Positions 11,099 to 14,237 of a stretch of 14,237 bases of DNA are shown here, piece by piece. The notes under the pieces were generated by a model. The model was given only the letters and a program-made list of their open reading frames with translations. It ran no database searches and was not told the DNA's origin. Origin of the DNA: Candidatus Aenigmatarchaeota archaeon. Lineage in GTDB: Archaea; Aenigmatarchaeota; Aenigmatarchaeia; QMZP01. The translations under genes and the position numbers were made by a program. The stretch is from contig JAWCLA010000016.1 in assembly GCA_039091855.1 (NCBI GenBank), positions 1-14,237 on the forward strand. Reading direction: 5' to 3'. Every line of letters starts with the position of its first letter. The stretch's first letter is position 1.

Positions 11099-11313
11099 AG
11101 TGCCGCTTCAATTATTGAAAAATACGGTGAGCTATCCTTTTGACTAGGACCGGTCGGGGATTGGTGGCAGTGAGCTGAACATCTCGGAAAACCTTGATGC
11201 TTACACCCCTGCTCCATCAACCCTGTCGTCTACAGGACCCTCCTGCCCTCACCGACAGTCGCCTGCCAGCTTGAGCAATGACTGCCTATTTTTGGGGACG
11301 GCTTCACGCTTAG

Positions 11314-11429
11314 TTAGGCCTGGAACAAGGCAATGAATTATAAGCTGCAACTGAAGTGCAACTTTCTCTTTATGGAAGCTTCCCATTTCCAACATTCCTT
11401 TCTACGTATTAAAAAGCCTTTTTTCCAGA
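11314..11429 (-). other. 23S BHB intron, 116 nt (after ~U2754, H97)
   Basis: Helix AGGC/GCCU, bulges AU|U and AA|C; splicing restores GGCAUCUAAGC. Confidence 0.88.
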
Positions 11430-11473
11430 ATGCCTTCAGCGCTTATCCGTTACGGCTTAGCTACTCGGCGTGC

Positions 11474-11508
11474 TTTCATCGAAAGACAGAGTTTTAACTG
11501 TCAATCGC
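11474..11508 (-). other. 23S BHB intron, 35 nt (H96, ~2703); carries the shared motif
   Basis: Helix UCAU/AUGA, bulges AG|G and AA|G, both flanks paired. Confidence 0.8.
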
Positions 11509-11678
11509 CTATGACAACCGATACACCAGAGGCCGCGACTCCCCGTTCCTTTCGTACTAAAGGAATCTTCCCCTCAGGCAATCCGCACCTTCAGTAGATA
11601 AAGACCGTACTGGCTCGCACCGTACTTAACCCAGCTAAGGTGACTCTTTGATGGGTGAACACCCCCACCCTTGGGCGC

Positions 11679-11735
11679 TTGCAGAAGCCCTTCTTTTAGA
11701 AAAGAAAAGGCTTTGGGTTCAAAAAGAAAGGCTTA
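11679..11735 (-). other. 23S BHB intron, 57 nt (after ~A2534, H91 loop)
   Basis: Helix GCAG/CUGC, bulges CA|U and AA|G; splicing restores GUGCAGCAGCGCCCAAGG. Confidence 0.88.
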
Positions 11736-11792
11736 TGCTGCACGCCCAGGAAGAGCCCAGCCGACGGCGGAGAAGCAACGAACGCGGTCGAT

Positions 11793-11822
11793 TTGTCCTG
11801 ATTATTTTGAAATATATATCAT
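11793..11822 (-). other. 23S BHB intron, 30 nt (after ~U2477, H89 loop)
   Basis: Helix GUCC/GGAC, bulges AU|A and AA|A; splicing restores GAGAGUCCAUAUCGAC. Confidence 0.9.
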
Positions 11823-11887
11823 ATGGACTCTCGCGCGCCACGACTCCATTATCCCCGTGGTAGCTTTTCTGACAGGTCCGGCCCCCA

Positions 11888-11952
11888 TTCTTATCGAAAG
11901 ACGACATCATTCATTAACGATTCAACCCTTATTACGCGAGCCGTCAATCGAG
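11888..11952 (-). other. 23S relaxed-BHB intron, ~65 nt (H88, ~2407); carries the shared motif
   Basis: Helix AUUA/UAAG (3 of 4 bp), bulges AU|C and AA|U; boundaries uncertain by about 1 nt. Confidence 0.7.
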
Positions 11953-12003
11953 ATTAATGAGGCACGGAAGATCGCTAGACCACGCTTTCGCGTTAGGACC
12001 CCT

Positions 12004-12072
12004 TTTAACCATCCTATCTTCTTTCCGTCAACGCTTTCTTGTGAAAGCGAAAGCTTCCGGAAGAAAGGGTTG
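12004..12072 (-). other. 23S relaxed-BHB intron, 69 nt (H86 loop, ~2361)
   Basis: Helix UGAC/GUUA, bulges AA|C and AA|A; exon-side stem GGACCUU/GGGGUCC; intron-side flank weak. Confidence 0.78.
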
Positions 12073-12123
12073 TTGTCAAAGGTCCTATCAGACCTCCTTT
12101 TGCTCTTACGCTCTTCTCCAGAT

Positions 12124-12189
12124 GTTCAGGGGAAAGACAGCTACCAATAACAAAAAACTGTTAATGATGTGATAAGCCATCAATCCACA
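12124..12189 (-). other. 23S BHB intron, 66 nt (after ~2310, H84 loop); carries the shared motif
   Basis: Helix UCAG/CUGA, bulges AA|U and AC|A; splicing restores GGUCAGAAAUCUGG. Confidence 0.88.
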
Positions 12190-12227
12190 TTCTGACCTGG
12201 ATGAGGAGATCTTTGGGCACCTCTGAT

Positions 12228-12257
12228 TTCAATGGATTGCAAAACCCTTTGCAATCG
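12228..12257 (-). other. 23S relaxed (BHL-like) intron, 30 nt (H81 loop, ~2272)
   Basis: Imperfect helix CAAG/AUUG with cuts AG|C and AA|A; 9-bp stem GAUUGCAAA/UUUGCAAUC; removal restores the expected loop length. Confidence 0.7.
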
Positions 12258-12312
12258 CTCTTGTCAGAGGTGTACCGCCCCAGTCAAACTGCCCACCTGA
12301 CGCTGTTCCCCA

Positions 12313-12347
12313 CTCTCCTCGAAAGACGTATAGAAACGTCAAACGAA
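12313..12347 (-). other. 23S BHB intron, 35 nt (H79 region); carries the shared motif
   Basis: Helix CUCU/GGAG, bulges UG|U and AG|U; an alternative register shifted by 1 nt is possible. Lies in a variable region. Confidence 0.68.
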
Positions 12348-12625
12348 CAAGAGGTAAGCAATATGAAGAAGATAGGGTGGTGTTACATTGGCGCCTTAGC
12401 AGTGACTGACGCCACTGCTGCATTGCTCCCACCTACTCTATACGATCCCCTTCATATCACAACATCAAGCTGCAGTAAAGTTCAACGGGGTCTTCTCGTC
12501 CCACTGAAGGTCTCCTGAATATGCACAGGACCATTAAGTTCACTGGGTATCGGCCCGGGACAGCGGGGATCTCGTTAAGCCATTGATGCAGGTCGACAAT
12601 TAATCGACAAGGGATTACGCTACCT

Positions 12626-12678
12626 GTATCCAGAAACGGCGTTTTATCACCGCCTTTCGGCTCAAGTGACCATTTCTT
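12626..12678 (-). other. 23S BHB intron, 53 nt (after A1927)
   Basis: Helix GUCU/GGAU, bulges UA|A and AC|A, both flanks paired; splicing restores CUUAAGGUAGCG. Confidence 0.92.
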
Positions 12679-12693
12679 TAAGACGGTCAGAGT

Positions 12694-12728
12694 TTGCGGA
12701 GGAAAACAACTTTAAAGCTGTTTTACCC
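12694..12728 (-). other. 23S BHB intron, 35 nt (after ~A1912, H69 loop)
   Basis: Helix GCGG/CCGC, bulges UA|G and AA|A; splicing restores GGCGGUAACUCUG. Confidence 0.9.
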
Positions 12729-12841
12729 TACCGCCGCCGTTTACCAGGGCTTTGCTCCGTTGTACCGGAGTTTAACCGACTGGCACTGGGCAGGCCTCAG
12801 GAGCTATACGTATCGTTTCCGATCAGCAGCCCCCTAAGTTT

Positions 12842-12887
12842 ATTAACGACATTCTTTCTATTTGAGGTCTTTCTTTGAAAGAAGTCA
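12842..12887 (-). other. 23S BHB intron, 46 nt (after ~A1784, H65 loop)
   Basis: Helix UAAC/GUUA, bulges AA|U and AU|A, both flanks paired; splicing restores CUGUUUAACAAAAAC. Confidence 0.9.
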
Positions 12888-12961
12888 TTGTTAAACAGTC
12901 GTACCCCCCTTGTAACTGCGACCTACTGATCCCAGCTGAGCTGAGGCAGTAGGCACCCCTT

Positions 12962-13011
12962 TTCGGCCGAAGAAGGCACTCTTACTATTTTCGCTTCGCC
13001 TTCATTCTCGT
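12962..13011 (-). other. 23S BHB intron, 50 nt (after ~1699, H62)
   Basis: Helix CGGU/GCCG, bulges AU|A and AA|A, both flanks paired; splicing restores CUUCGGUAUAAGGGG. Confidence 0.9.
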
Positions 13012-13033
13012 ATACCGAAGATACGGGGCCAAT

Positions 13034-13937
13034 TTAGGCTGGATATAGAATCAAAATGAAATATTAAGTTTTCCCTCAACAAAACTATTAAGTTCTTTTT
13101 TATTGTTTATTCGCTTTATGCATTCTAACAGAAAATTGTTGGCTTCCTCAATTGATTTAAAATTTTTATTAATCCAATTGGATTTTTCTCTTAGCATACC
13201 ACAGAAAATCATCATTTTCACAACATCGTTTTTTGTGAAACCATTGAACAATTTGCCTCTTCGAACTTTTGACTCTTCAAGGAATCCCACAGTTTCATGG
13301 AATTTTTTTATTTCATACGAATTCTTTATGATGAATCCTGTCTCTTTTTCGATAGGGTTCAATCCAACAATTTTAAATATTTTACGCATCTGTTTTTTTA
13401 TTTTGGGATTAGTACACCCAATTTTGATGCCCATATGCAATTGTATTATATTCCTATCTTTTCGCTTGTAGACAGAAAATTCCGGACCACCATCACAAGT
13501 TGCATAGTATCTGAGGAATTCCTTTGAATTTTCTATTGAAAAGCACTCTTTAGGTATTCTTGTGGATGGGTATTGTAAATCTTCTGATTTTTCAGGATTC
13601 TTTGGATGGATATTAAATGCCCTCATTCTGAAAGATGGTGTAAATTCGGTTAATAGATTCACAAGCTTTTTTGAATTAACCTTTGCCCTGTAGGAGTTCG
13701 CATGTTTGTTAATCTTCCAGTTGAGCTTAATATCGGCGATTTCATTAAACTCCTCTATCAACCTCATTACAACATCTTTGTCTTCCGTAAATGAAACTGT
13801 ATATCTTTTTAGATCTACTGAACCATCTGATAGAAGCACAGCAATTAGTTTTAATATTTGCATCATAAGCCCCGTACTATATTCAGTTTGCTTATTTATA
13901 AATACGGGGCTTACTGGACGAATGATTCTATATCCAT
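13034..13937 (-). mobile_element. 904-nt archaeal BHB rRNA intron carrying a homing endonuclease (after ~A1677)
   Basis: Perfect 14-bp terminal inverted repeat (13040-13053 / 13923-13936); helix AGGC/GCCU; bulges AA|A and AA|A; splicing restores AGGCAAAUUGG; AT-rich ORF inside. Confidence 0.93.
13051..13866 (-). CDS. Double-motif LAGLIDADG homing endonuclease (intron-encoded)
   Basis: Motif 1 LIAVLLSDGS and motif 2 FLRYYATCDGG about 110 aa apart, both keeping the catalytic Asp; SKKLVNLL linker; Lys/Ile-rich. Confidence 0.9.
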   Translation of the reverse strand: MMQILKLIAVLLSDGSVDLKRYTVSFTEDKDVVMRLIEEFNEIADIKLNWKINKHANSYRAKVNSKKLVNLLTEFTPSFRMRAFNIHPKNPEKSEDLQYPSTRIPKECFSIENSKEFLRYYATCDGGPEFSVYKRKDRNIIQLHMGIKIGCTNPKIKKQMRKIFKIVGLNPIEKETGFIIKNSYEIKKFHETVGFLEESKVRRGKLFNGFTKNDVVKMMIFCGMLREKSNWINKNFKSIEEANNFLLECIKRINNKKELNSFVEGKLNISF

Positions 13938-14043
13938 TTGCCTAATTCCCTGGACCGATTTCTCCCAACACACCTTCCCCTTCTCAGGGAGGGGCACCAG
14001 TAACGGTTCTCGGTACGAGTGGGAGATTCCTTACCGGTTTCCT

Positions 14044-14080
14044 GTGTGAGAAAAGGCATGTAGCCAGCCATGCCCTTTCC
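14044..14080 (-). other. 23S BHB intron, 37 nt (after ~A1571)
   Basis: Helix GUGA/UCAC, bulges AA|G and AC|A; 11-bp stem GAAAGGGCAUG/CAUGCCUUUUC; splicing restores CCGUGAAAAGG. Confidence 0.92.
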
Positions 14081-14237
14081 TTTCACGGGCTCCAGGAATC
14101 AGCAGAACCTGCATAACAGGCCATTCCCAAATTTGCCTGTTTCTCACCATTATGGTACTCCACAGGCTTGAAAGGTTAGATGCACAGAGTGCACTCTACC
14201 TATCCCGAAGCGTCAGAAACCAGTCCTGCGTTGCCGC

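What the first reader, a model, noticed from the sequence alone, without database searches (positions are those of the whole stretch)
11604..11856. Heavily substituted but covarying peptidyl-transferase centre
Seen: GGAUAAUGGAG (usual archaeal GGAUAACAGAG), GCUUCUCCGCCGUCGG (usual GCUACCUCGAUGUCGG) and ACCUUAGCUGGGUUAAG (usual ACGUGAGCUGGGUUUAG). By-eye numbering gives C2452U, A2453G, A2497U, C2499U, U2500C, A2503C, U2504C, G2576U and U2586A. Compensation is evident (2453-2500 G-C, 2452/2504 swapped, G2512-C2574, H93 re-paired), and A2451, U2506, U2585 and A2602 are intact, arguing against a pseudogene. Position 2055 (near 12498) is the bacterial-type C. Known: changes at 2452, 2453, 2500, 2503, 2504 and 2576 confer resistance to anisomycin, chloramphenicol or linezolid. 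Inference: a naturally remodelled A-site cleft.
Basis: partly seen in the sequence, partly recalled or inferred. Interest (0 to 1): 0.7.

Follow-up and report, generated by a model that had tools for sequence, protein, structure and literature searches.

The report
Lineage-wide rebuilt ribosome catalytic centre
The large ribosomal RNA of this tiny archaeon carries about ten changes around the site where proteins are made; its whole order and partly its whole phylum share them, so they are a working natural redesign, similar in kind to one reported in 2024 for other archaea.

Summary
Window 11142-14237 (minus strand) is the 3' part of the only 23S rRNA gene found in a 0.69-Mb DPANN-type genome. 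An Rfam alignment confirms C2452U, A2453G, A2497U, C2499U, U2500C, A2503C, U2504C, G2576U, U2586A and C2055. A2451, G2505, U2506, U2585, A2602 and the A and P loops are intact.

It is not a one-off. The exact 20-mer around 2492-2511 occurs in 48 genomes of the same order. U2576 is found in nearly the whole phylum, C or U at 2503 in most of it, and U2452/G2453 widely. C2504, C/U2055 and A2586 mark the window's order.

Pairs are kept: 2453-2500 runs A-U, then G.U, then G-C; 2512-2574 and 2057-2611 are swapped. An RNA-library contig carries both central-loop strands without a mismatch.

A 2024 preprint (Nissley et al.) already describes divergent catalytic centres in Thermoprotei and Methanomethylicia. 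Its main text names neither DPANN nor positions 2503 and 2576. I therefore call this a new variant of a known kind.

Drug insensitivity is inferred, not shown.

Seen in passing: the sarcin-ricin loop reads GAAA across the phylum, and the short insertions in the gene look like bulge-helix-bulge mini-introns.

The parts
11142..14237 (-). 3' part (model positions 1548-2987) of the 23S/LSU rRNA gene, cut by the contig end
   Evidence: RF02540, 805.3 bits. It is the only LSU locus found in the 689,355-base genome.
11844..11856 (-). Central-loop strand 2444-2456, GGGGAUAAUGGAG. A2451 is intact at 11849; C2452U is at 11848 and A2453G at 11847.
   Evidence: Alignment; coordinates.
11793..11822 (-). 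30-nt insertion in the H89 loop with a bulge-helix-bulge shape. It is probably a mini-intron and not part of the mature centre.
   Evidence: The fold gives a 3-nt bulge, the 4-bp helix GUCC:GGAC and a 3-nt bulge. Register check: 4 of 4 central pairs. An RNA-run contig lacks exactly 30 nt here.
11755..11777 (-). Central-loop strand 2493-2515: A2497U (11773), C2499U (11771), U2500C (11770), A2503C (11767), U2504C (11766). G2505 and U2506 are intact. G at 2512 (11758) pairs with C2574.
   Evidence: The exact 20-mer occurs in 48 genomes.
11679..11735 (-). 57-nt insertion in the H91 loop with bulge-helix-bulge geometry (central helix GCAG:CUGC).
   Evidence: The joint 11678->11736 is seen in RNA run X16 (3 contigs) and in DNA run X1 (1 contig).
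11656..11662 (-). A loop (GUGUUCA, 2551-2557), canonical.
11625..11644 (-). Strand 2569-2588: C2574 (11639), G2576U (11637), U2586A (11627). G2583, U2584 and U2585 are intact.
11607..11625 (-). Helix 93, re-paired with 7 standard pairs, with A2602 at 11611.
   Evidence: Structure line; coordinates.
11602..11604 (-). Positions 2609-2611. U2611 pairs with A2057.
   Evidence: Pair counts.
12490..12500 (-). Positions 2053-2063, GACGAGAAGAC. C2055 is at 12498 (family consensus A) and A2057 at 12496. G2061, A2062 and C2063 are intact.
11545..11559 (-). Sarcin-ricin loop with a GAAA tetraloop instead of GAGA (A at 2661, window 11551). It is a companion change, not part of the catalytic centre.
   Evidence: control.

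Best explanation
What it is. This is the working 23S rRNA of a very small archaeon. Earlier notes of this scan name it Aenigmatarchaeota from a hot spring; I did not verify that name.

The catalytic first shell is unchanged: A2451, G2061-C2063, G2447, A2450, G2505, U2506, U2584, U2585, A2602, and the A and P loops. The second shell, which forms the A-site cleft and the tunnel entrance, has been rebuilt by inherited substitutions:
- Pair 2453-2500 went from A-U to G-C.
- The 2452/2504 contact went from C/U to U/C.
- A2497U, C2499U, A2503C, G2576U, U2586A and A2055C were added.

The states are spread in layers. The order of events is inferred from that distribution, not from a rooted tree.
- U2576 occurs in nearly all sampled genomes of the phylum.
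- C or U at 2503 occurs in most.
- U2452/G2453 are widespread.
- U2497/U2499/C2500 occur in several clades.
- C2504, C/U2055 and A2586 mark the window's order, where the whole set is frozen.

Shown: the sequence states, their distribution, the kept base pairs, and presence in RNA libraries.

Inferred: the cleft geometry differs from the canonical one, so classical A-site-cleft inhibitors (anisomycin, chloramphenicol, oxazolidinone and pleuromutilin types) would bind poorly.

Cause, as I rate it: compensated, nearly neutral change in a catalytic centre that archaea tolerate better than bacteria (about 0.5), over selection by natural inhibitors (about 0.25).
For: One gene, intact structure.
- One LSU gene was found in the genome. 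No canonical 20-mer within 3 mismatches was found in G000.
- The alignment keeps the helices and the first-shell bases.

Fixed across the order.
- The variant 20-mer matches within 2 mismatches in 52 of 91 genomes of the order, exactly in 48. The other 39 showed no match, and many lack an assembled LSU.
- Their uL3 proteins are 51-75% identical to the window's.
- In my table of 119 genomes (4 of 123 loci dropped as likely bin contaminants or spurious hits), all 32 own-order genomes read U2452, G2453, U2499, C2500, C2503, C2504 and U2576.

Spread outside the order.
- U2576 in 78 of 79 genomes read.
- At 2503: C 64, U 16, A 7 of 87.
- At 2504: U 85, C 2 of 87.

Control. In the phylum of Halorubrum, 64 of 81 genomes matched, and all 84 matches read G at 2576.

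Base pairs.
- 2453-2500 forms a standard pair in 97 of 101 genomes read (G-C 46, G.U 50, A-U 1).
- 2512-2574 in 58 of 60 (C-G 47, G-C 7, U.G 4).
- 2057-2611 in 95 of 98 (A-U 70, C-G 20, U-A 3, G-C 1, G.U 1).

RNA libraries.
- A 256-nt contig of run X15, depth 482, lies on 11736-11887 with 0 other letters apart from one 30-letter gap. It covers both central-loop strands.
- No other letter was listed at 11637 or 11627 in runs X15, X16 and X19.

Same kind elsewhere. Nissley et al. report divergent centres in other archaea, give the 2452-2504 and 2453-2500 pairs, and link A2453C, U2500C and U2504C to linezolid, anisomycin and chloramphenicol resistance in haloarchaea. In T. thermophilus, A2453G, U2500C, A2503G and U2504C came from chloramphenicol selections.
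Against: - No RNA data come from the window's own organism. The RNA contigs come from other habitats (labelled peat, wetland, sediment), so they are relatives, and an RNA library can hold DNA.
- DNA run X1 may be the source sample, so it is not independent.
- The genome is 84% complete. A second, canonical rRNA gene cannot be excluded.
- E. coli numbers rest on recall.
- The 2452/2453 counts outside the order are biased. The local alignment dropped non-UG states. One search found UG in 69 of 112 loci with the motif and CA in 5; the rest were other states or intron-interrupted.
- No structure, activity or drug test exists.
- The order of events rests on family labels and on one quick single-gene tree.
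Confidence: 0.85

Rival explanations
1. The changes were driven by selection to escape natural small-molecule inhibitors of the catalytic centre, or other agents acting on this site. They are not the result of drift.
For: - The changed positions coincide with those where laboratory mutants of haloarchaea and T. thermophilus resist anisomycin, linezolid, chloramphenicol or tiamulin.
- The same UCUCCGC-type strand, together with G2453, occurs in three separately supported clades of a uL3 tree. Each clade also holds other states: the own order (SH-aLRT 95), f18 within f17/f21/f22 (96), and f7/f10 within f8-f13 (91).
- Within the order the set is invariant in 32 of 32 genomes.
Against: - No inhibitor, producer or phenotype is known here.
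- Across families the second shell shows many different states, which looks like relaxed constraint. At 2497: G 34, A 29, U 20, C 4. At 2499: G 47, U 17, C 14, A 9.
- The sarcin-ricin loop, far from the cleft, is also changed across the phylum.
- The tree is a quick, single-gene, midpoint-rooted tree. Reversals or rRNA exchange could mimic convergence.
Confidence: 0.25
2. The changes adapt the ribosome to heat. G-C replaces A-U at 2453-2500, as proposed for parts of the Thermoprotei ribosome.
For: - The DNA holders of the window are labelled hot-spring metagenomes.
- The published divergent centres are in hyperthermophiles.
- A-U to G-C strengthens a pair.
Against: - RNA-library contigs with identical central-loop strands, or with the order's variant strand, come from runs labelled peat, wetland and sediment.
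- Most changes do not add pairing strength: A2503C, G2576U, U2586A, A2497U.
- Window G+C is only 40-49%.
Confidence: 0.1
3. The gene is a decaying or silent rRNA copy (pseudogene), or the substitutions are assembly or alignment errors.
For: - The gene is cut by the contig end and interrupted by many insertions.
- The genome is a metagenome bin, 84% complete.
Against: - 48 genomes share the exact 20-mer.
- Contigs of DNA run X1 cover 11100-14237 with 0-1 differences. This may be the source sample.
- Helices keep compensatory pairs.
- The first-shell bases are intact.
- An RNA-library contig matches without a mismatch.
- No second LSU gene was found.
Confidence: 0.03
4. The DNA is variant, but the RNA is corrected after transcription (for example C-to-U editing at 2503/2504), so the mature centre is canonical.
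For: None found. This is only the general possibility.
Against: The RNA-library contig of X15 has 0 other letters over 11736-11887, which includes 2452, 2453 and 2497-2504. No other letters were listed at these places in X16 or X19. The tool warns that contigs drop rare variants.
Confidence: 0.02

Closest known systems
Divergent peptidyl transferase centres of Thermoprotei and Methanomethylicia (Pyrobaculum calidifontis ribosome; Nissley et al., bioRxiv 10.1101/2024.11.12.623245; outline and sections 3, 6, 7, 9 and 18 read)
   Same: - Clade-wide natural substitutions at otherwise conserved second-shell positions in 2447-2453 and 2500-2504.
- The catalytic bases are kept.
- The positions overlap known resistance mutations.
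- The organisms are archaeal, with the short uL3 loop. The window's uL3 aligns to T. kodakarensis uL3 without a gap at the tip.
   Different: - Another phylum. The paper's main text has 0 mentions of DPANN, Aenigma or Nanoarchae.
- Other letters: G2453 with C2500 as a likely Watson-Crick pair and U2452/C2504, against three cytidines at 2453, 2500 and 2504.
- G2447 and C2501 are unchanged here.
- Additional positions the paper does not mention: 2503 and 2576 (0 mentions), and also 2497, 2499, 2586 and 2055.
- No structure exists for this lineage.
- The paper's supplementary alignments may contain these sequences. I could not see them.
Laboratory drug-resistance mutations in the catalytic centre (haloarchaea, as cited in Nissley et al.; Thermus thermophilus, PMC7345174, passages and tables read)
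   Same: The same positions are involved: 2452, 2453, 2500, 2503, 2504. G2576U as a linezolid mutation is from my recall. The T. thermophilus paper lists C2452U as tiamulin-resistant, and lists A2453G, U2500C, A2503G and U2504C as coming from chloramphenicol selections.
   Different: Those are single changes selected in the laboratory, often with a growth cost. Here up to ten changes are combined, compensated and fixed in nature, and no phenotype has been measured. A2503 is C here, not G.
Canonical archaeal LSU rRNA (Rfam RF02540 consensus; Halorubrum-phylum control genomes)
   Same: The overall fold, the first-shell bases, and the A and P loops.
   Different: Seven upper-case consensus positions of the central loop differ. 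In the control phylum all 84 matches read G at 2576 and 83 of 84 read U at 2586. There, 69 of 70 matches read the GAGA sarcin-ricin tetraloop and none read GAAA.

Membership tests
Archaeal LSU rRNA (Rfam RF02540) | Covariance-model score above the gathering cut-off | tested here: met
   805.3 bits against 50. It scored best in its clan over the bacterial and eukaryotic models.
Archaeal LSU rRNA (Rfam RF02540) | Catalytic first-shell bases and the A and P loops present | tested here: met
   A2451, G2061-C2063, G2447, A2450, G2505, U2506, U2584, U2585, A2602, UGUUC and GGGGCGG are all present.
Naturally divergent archaeal catalytic centre (kind described by Nissley et al. 2024) | Substitutions at highly conserved positions within 2447-2453 and 2500-2504 | tested here: met
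   2452, 2453, 2500, 2503 and 2504 differ from the consensus.
Naturally divergent archaeal catalytic centre (kind described by Nissley et al. 2024) | Shared by a clade, not a single sequence | tested here: met
   52 of 91 genomes of the order match the variant 20-mer, 48 exactly. 32 of 32 tabulated own-order genomes carry all states.
Naturally divergent archaeal catalytic centre (kind described by Nissley et al. 2024) | Belongs to the described clades (Thermoprotei, Methanomethylicia) | tested here: not met
   Genomes of 0.3-2 Mb in one phylum with one class. Earlier notes name it Aenigmatarchaeota; I did not verify this. The paper's main text does not name this group.
Naturally divergent archaeal catalytic centre (kind described by Nissley et al. 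2024) | Rearranged base triples and hydrogen-bond networks seen in a structure | not testable with these tools
   No structure is available and no RNA 3D tool was on hand.
Naturally divergent archaeal catalytic centre (kind described by Nissley et al. 2024) | Short archaeal-type uL3 loop next to 2504/2572 | tested here: met
   The window genome's uL3 aligns without a gap to T. kodakarensis uL3 (6skf) across the tip. The tip reads S-A-R-N-V where 6skf reads G-P-W-H-P.
rRNA pseudogene | Loss of helix pairing and of functional bases; a functional copy elsewhere | tested here: not met
   Pairs are kept with compensatory changes. No second LSU gene was found in the 84%-complete genome.
Antibiotic-resistant ribosome (phenotype) | Reduced inhibition by A-site-cleft drugs | not testable with these tools
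   Only the positional overlap with known mutants is available.

The most novel reading that the evidence does not exclude
A whole archaeal phylum has rewritten several 'universal' rRNA bases: U2576, A2661 in the sarcin-ricin loop, and C or U at 2503. It has also reached the same G2453/U2497/U2499/C2500 arrangement more than once, independently.

That would point to positive selection on the catalytic centre. The agent could be natural A-site-cleft inhibitors. It could also be the many introns and their endonucleases that target exactly this DNA: 30 of 99 relatives carry an insertion at 2449-2452.

It would mean these ribosomes are intrinsically insensitive to a broad set of inhibitors.
Probability: 0.3. 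Interest if true: 0.8.

Novelty: new variant of a known kind. Interest (0 to 1): 0.62.

Why it matters
The catalytic centre is the textbook example of universal conservation. One 2024 preprint showed exceptions in two hyperthermophile-rich archaeal classes.

This lineage would be a second, independent and more extensive case.
- Up to ten positions are changed.
- They include A2503 and G2576, which that preprint does not mention.
- Intermediate states are still alive in sister families, so the path A-U, G.U, G-C at 2453-2500 can be read directly.

It offers natural, compensated sequence solutions for people who engineer the catalytic centre. It gives a test of how far 'universal' bases are contingent on context. 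It also predicts which inhibitors should fail on these uncultured symbionts.

Tried and rejected
- my one scan of genome contigs used a 16-letter pattern that was too short. I therefore could not name the organisms carrying the variant from record titles.
- the protein atlas search with uL3 gave no usable taxonomy.
- Blaha 2008 and Gurel 2009 are not held. What I say about 2055, 2572 and 2504 setting species specificity is recalled, apart from the Gurel title, which I saw in a reference list.
- PMC4652758 had none of the mutation names I searched for.
- the careful tree did not finish in time, so the quick tree was used.
- I did not run the count of structure pairs, because the pieces are separated by insertions of different lengths. 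The pair counts are my own script's.
- RNA runs gave no cover over 13095-13934. Those runs are from other habitats, so this says nothing about the large insertion.
- No RNA run of the window's own habitat was offered.
- The first version of my table chose strands badly for divergent loci and was redone. A few rows remain doubtful: G075, G126, G262, and some f21 and f31 rows.

Full report
**What lies at the coordinates**

Rfam's archaeal LSU model matches window 11142-14237 on the minus strand (805 bits, model positions 1548-2987). The 5' end is cut by the contig end. The window's other genes are archaeal housekeeping genes: TFB, a DEAD-box helicase, CTP synthase and an XPF/ERCC4 nuclease. The window is contig 8 of a 689,355-base, 38-contig genome rated 84% complete. 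Only this LSU locus was found in it. Earlier notes of this scan call the genome a hot-spring Aenigmatarchaeota. I could not verify the name, because my one scan of named genomes was wasted on too short a pattern.

**Check of the observation**

- C2452U at 11848
- A2453G at 11847
- A2497U at 11773
- C2499U at 11771
- U2500C at 11770
- A2503C at 11767
- U2504C at 11766
- G2576U at 11637
- U2586A at 11627
- C at 2055 at 12498, where the consensus has A

Seven of these are upper-case, highly conserved positions of the family consensus. The first shell is intact: A2451, G2061-C2063, G2447, A2450, G2505, U2506, U2584, U2585, A2602, the A loop and the P loop.

G2512-C2574 replaces C-G, A2057-U2611 is a pair, and all seven pairs of H93 are standard. 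The numbering rests on my recall of the E. coli sequence.

**Not an artefact and not a pseudogene**

- The exact 20-mer spanning 2492-2511 occurs in 48 genomes.
- G000 holds no canonical version within three mismatches.
- Contigs of DNA run X1 cover 11100-14237 with 0-1 differences at depth 5-7. That run may be the source sample, so it is not independent.
- A 256-nt contig of RNA library X15 (depth 482) lies on 11736-11887 with no other letter and one 30-letter gap. It therefore carries both central-loop strands in variant form.
- RNA contigs of X16 and X19 carry, at 11639 and 11643, the letters typical of the other families of the order. No other letter was listed at 11637 (2576) or 11627 (2586).
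- These libraries are labelled peat, wetland and sediment, so they are relatives, and RNA libraries can hold DNA. Contigs cannot show expression level.

**Distribution**

The phylum sample holds 371 genomes, all in one class.

Variant 20-mer:
- It matches within two mismatches in 66 of the 371 genomes.
- 52 of these are among the 91 genomes of the window's order. By family: f1 28 of 46 plus G000, f2 14 of 23, f3 1 of 1, f4 4 of 5, f5 1 of 1, f6 3 of 14.
- 14 matches lie outside the order. Most of these read U at 2504.

Canonical 20-mer:
- It matches within three mismatches in 58 of 371 genomes.
- Nearly all of these carry C or U at 2503.
- The truly canonical hits are bacterial-type or lie in oversized bins (G038, G047).

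A conserved P-loop anchor showed that only 114 of 371 genomes hold this part of the LSU at all. Non-matches are therefore mostly missing rRNA.

I fetched 100 further stretches and tabulated 123 loci. Four were dropped as likely contaminants or spurious hits: G038a, G047a, G220b and G222. That left 119 genomes, 32 from the order and 87 from 26 other families.

In the order:
- 32 of 32 genomes read U2452, G2453, U2499, C2500, C2503, C2504 and U2576.
- 2497 reads U 31, C 1.
- 2055 reads C 25, U 5, A 2.
- 2586 reads A 28, C 2, G 1.

Outside the order:

| Position | States (genomes read) |
|---|---|
| 2576 | U 78, G 1 (doubtful alignment) |
| 2503 | C 64, U 16, A 7 |
| 2504 | U 85, C 2 (both doubtful) |
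| 2500 | U 72, C 14, G 1 |
| 2497 | G 34, A 29, U 20, C 4 |
| 2499 | G 47, U 17, C 14, A 9 |
| 2055 | A 68, C 1, U 1 |
| 2586 | C 60, U 13, A 5 |

For 2452/2453 the table is biased against non-UG states. A direct motif read found UG in 69 of the 112 loci with the motif and CA in 5, two of them contaminant-like. The rest were other states or were interrupted by introns.

As a control, in the phylum of Halorubrum 64 of 81 genomes matched the 2573-2588 pattern. All 84 matches read G at 2576, and 83 of 84 read U at 2586.

**Base pairs**

According to Nissley et al., in E. coli 2504 pairs with C2452 and A2453 pairs with U2500. Over the table:
- 2453-2500 is a standard pair in 97 of 101 genomes read (G-C 46, G.U 50, A-U 1). 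The series A-U, G.U, G-C is present among living families.
- 2453-2499 pairs in only 49 of 101.
- 2452/2504 is U/C in the order and U/U in 67 of 69 others.
- 2512-2574 is C-G 47, G-C 7, U.G 4, other 2. The G-C swap marks the window's genus.
- 2057-2611 is A-U 70, C-G 20, U-A 3, G-C 1, G.U 1, other 3.

**Ribosomal protein uL3**

- The window genome's uL3 (L252, 331 aa) aligns without a gap to T. kodakarensis uL3. Its finger tip next to the catalytic centre reads S-A-R-N-V where 6skf reads G-P-W-H-P.
- In 46 genomes of the phylum the tip is very variable, and the tryptophan is kept in one genome, G015.
- It does not track the rRNA states one to one.
- A quick single-gene uL3 tree keeps the order together (SH-aLRT 95). 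It places the other carriers of the UCUCCGC-type strand in two further supported clades that also hold other states. This means either repeated origin or reversals. The tree is weak evidence.

**Literature**

- Searches for A2503 with DPANN or archaea, Aenigmarchaeota with 23S or peptidyl transferase, and DPANN with peptidyl transferase centre gave no report for this group.
- A search for A2453/C2499 found Nissley et al., bioRxiv 2024. I read its outline and sections 3, 6, 7, 9 and 18.
  - It aligned GTDB r220 archaeal 23S genes and reports variation at up to six positions (2447-2453, 2500-2504) in Thermoprotei and Methanomethylicia.
  - It solved the P. calidifontis ribosome and argues that the short archaeal uL3 loop permits such variation.
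  - It notes that A2453C, U2500C, U2504C and G2447A give linezolid, anisomycin or chloramphenicol resistance in haloarchaea.
  - Its main text has no mention of DPANN, Aenigma, Nanoarchae, 2503, 2576 or intron.
  - It kept only sequences without gaps in the plotted region and with under 10% non-standard pairs. That may have removed these intron-rich genes.
- PMC7345174 (passages and tables) gives conservation values: C2452 100/100, U2500 100/99.64, A2503 99.59/98.31, U2504 99.59/98.43. It also gives the T. thermophilus resistance data.
- A later search found no newer paper on the topic.

**Reading**

The gene encodes a working ribosome. Its catalytic bases are canonical, but its A-site cleft and tunnel entrance are rebuilt.

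The many different second-shell states across families look like relaxed constraint followed by compensation. So does a second changed 'universal' site far from the cleft (see below). Invariance within the order shows that the new state is itself under purifying selection. The recurrence of one arrangement in several clades keeps selection by inhibitors in play.

Thermal adaptation is unlikely as the main cause, because the variant occurs in libraries from cool habitats. Drug insensitivity is a reasonable prediction only.

**Seen in passing**

1. The sarcin-ricin tetraloop reads GAAA instead of GAGA (A at 2661, window 11551). It does so in 103 of the 107 phylum loci where the loop was found. 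In the control phylum, 0 of 70 matches read GAAA and 69 read GAGA. I found no paper naming G2661A.
2. The 30-67-nt insertions at hairpin tips look like bulge-helix-bulge mini-introns.
   - The H89 insertion folds as 3-nt bulge, 4-bp helix, 3-nt bulge.
   - RNA-library contigs skip an insertion at seven joints. Five of the seven have 4 of 4 central-helix pairs in the exact register, and two have 3 of 4. Five unrelated joints have 1-3 of 4.
   - Removing the H89 insertion restores the canonical loop.
   - A DNA contig also lacks the 57-nt insertion, so intron-less alleles exist, and the RNA contigs do not prove splicing.
3. The DNA coding for the catalytic centre is an insertion hot spot in the phylum. 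30 of 99 loci carry more than 20 extra bases at 2449-2452, and 30 of 97 carry them between about 2584 and 2599.

Noticed in passing
window 11545-11559 (minus strand), position 2661 at 11551; relatives L003-L251: The sarcin-ricin loop reads GAAA instead of the universal GAGA tetraloop (G2661A). This holds in 103 of the 107 loci of the phylum where the loop was found. In a control phylum (Halorubrum's), 69 of 70 matches read GAGA and none read GAAA. A paper search for G2661A found nothing.
   Followed up: partly
window 11793-11822, 11679-11735, 11888-11952, 12003-12069, 12124-12189, 12312-12346, 14044-14080 (minus strand): The short insertions (30-67 nt) at hairpin tips of the 23S gene have bulge-helix-bulge geometry. 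The predicted cut sites coincide with the joints at which RNA-library contigs skip them: 5 of 7 have a perfect 4-bp central helix and 2 of 7 have 3 of 4 pairs. Removing the 30-nt insertion restores the canonical H89 loop. A DNA contig also lacks the 57-nt one, so splicing is likely but not shown.
   Followed up: partly
window about 13079-14065, ORF 13051-13866 (minus strand): An insertion of roughly 990 bases, A+T-rich (34% G+C), interrupts the 23S gene. It carries a 271-aa open frame on the rRNA strand. The frame has no Pfam match, and no Rfam intron family matches the stretch.
   Followed up: partly
relatives, loci L004-L251 (sites 2449-2452 and about 2584-2599 of the 23S gene): The DNA coding for the catalytic centre is an insertion hot spot in this phylum. 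30 of 99 loci carry 33-944 extra bases right at A2451. 30 of 97 carry 36-1276 extra bases between U2584 and H93.
   Followed up: partly
L252 1492-2487 (uL3 of the window's genome) and uL3 of 45 relatives: The uL3 finger tip that reaches the catalytic centre reads S-A-R-N-V where T. kodakarensis reads G-P-W-H-P. Across 46 genomes of the phylum the tip is highly variable, and the tryptophan is kept in only one.
   Followed up: partly
G038 (L003, L028) and G047 (L205, L206): Two oversized bins (1.9 and 2.0 Mb) hold both a variant and a canonical or bacterial-type LSU gene. They are probably mixed bins. I left their canonical copies out of the counts.
   Followed up: no
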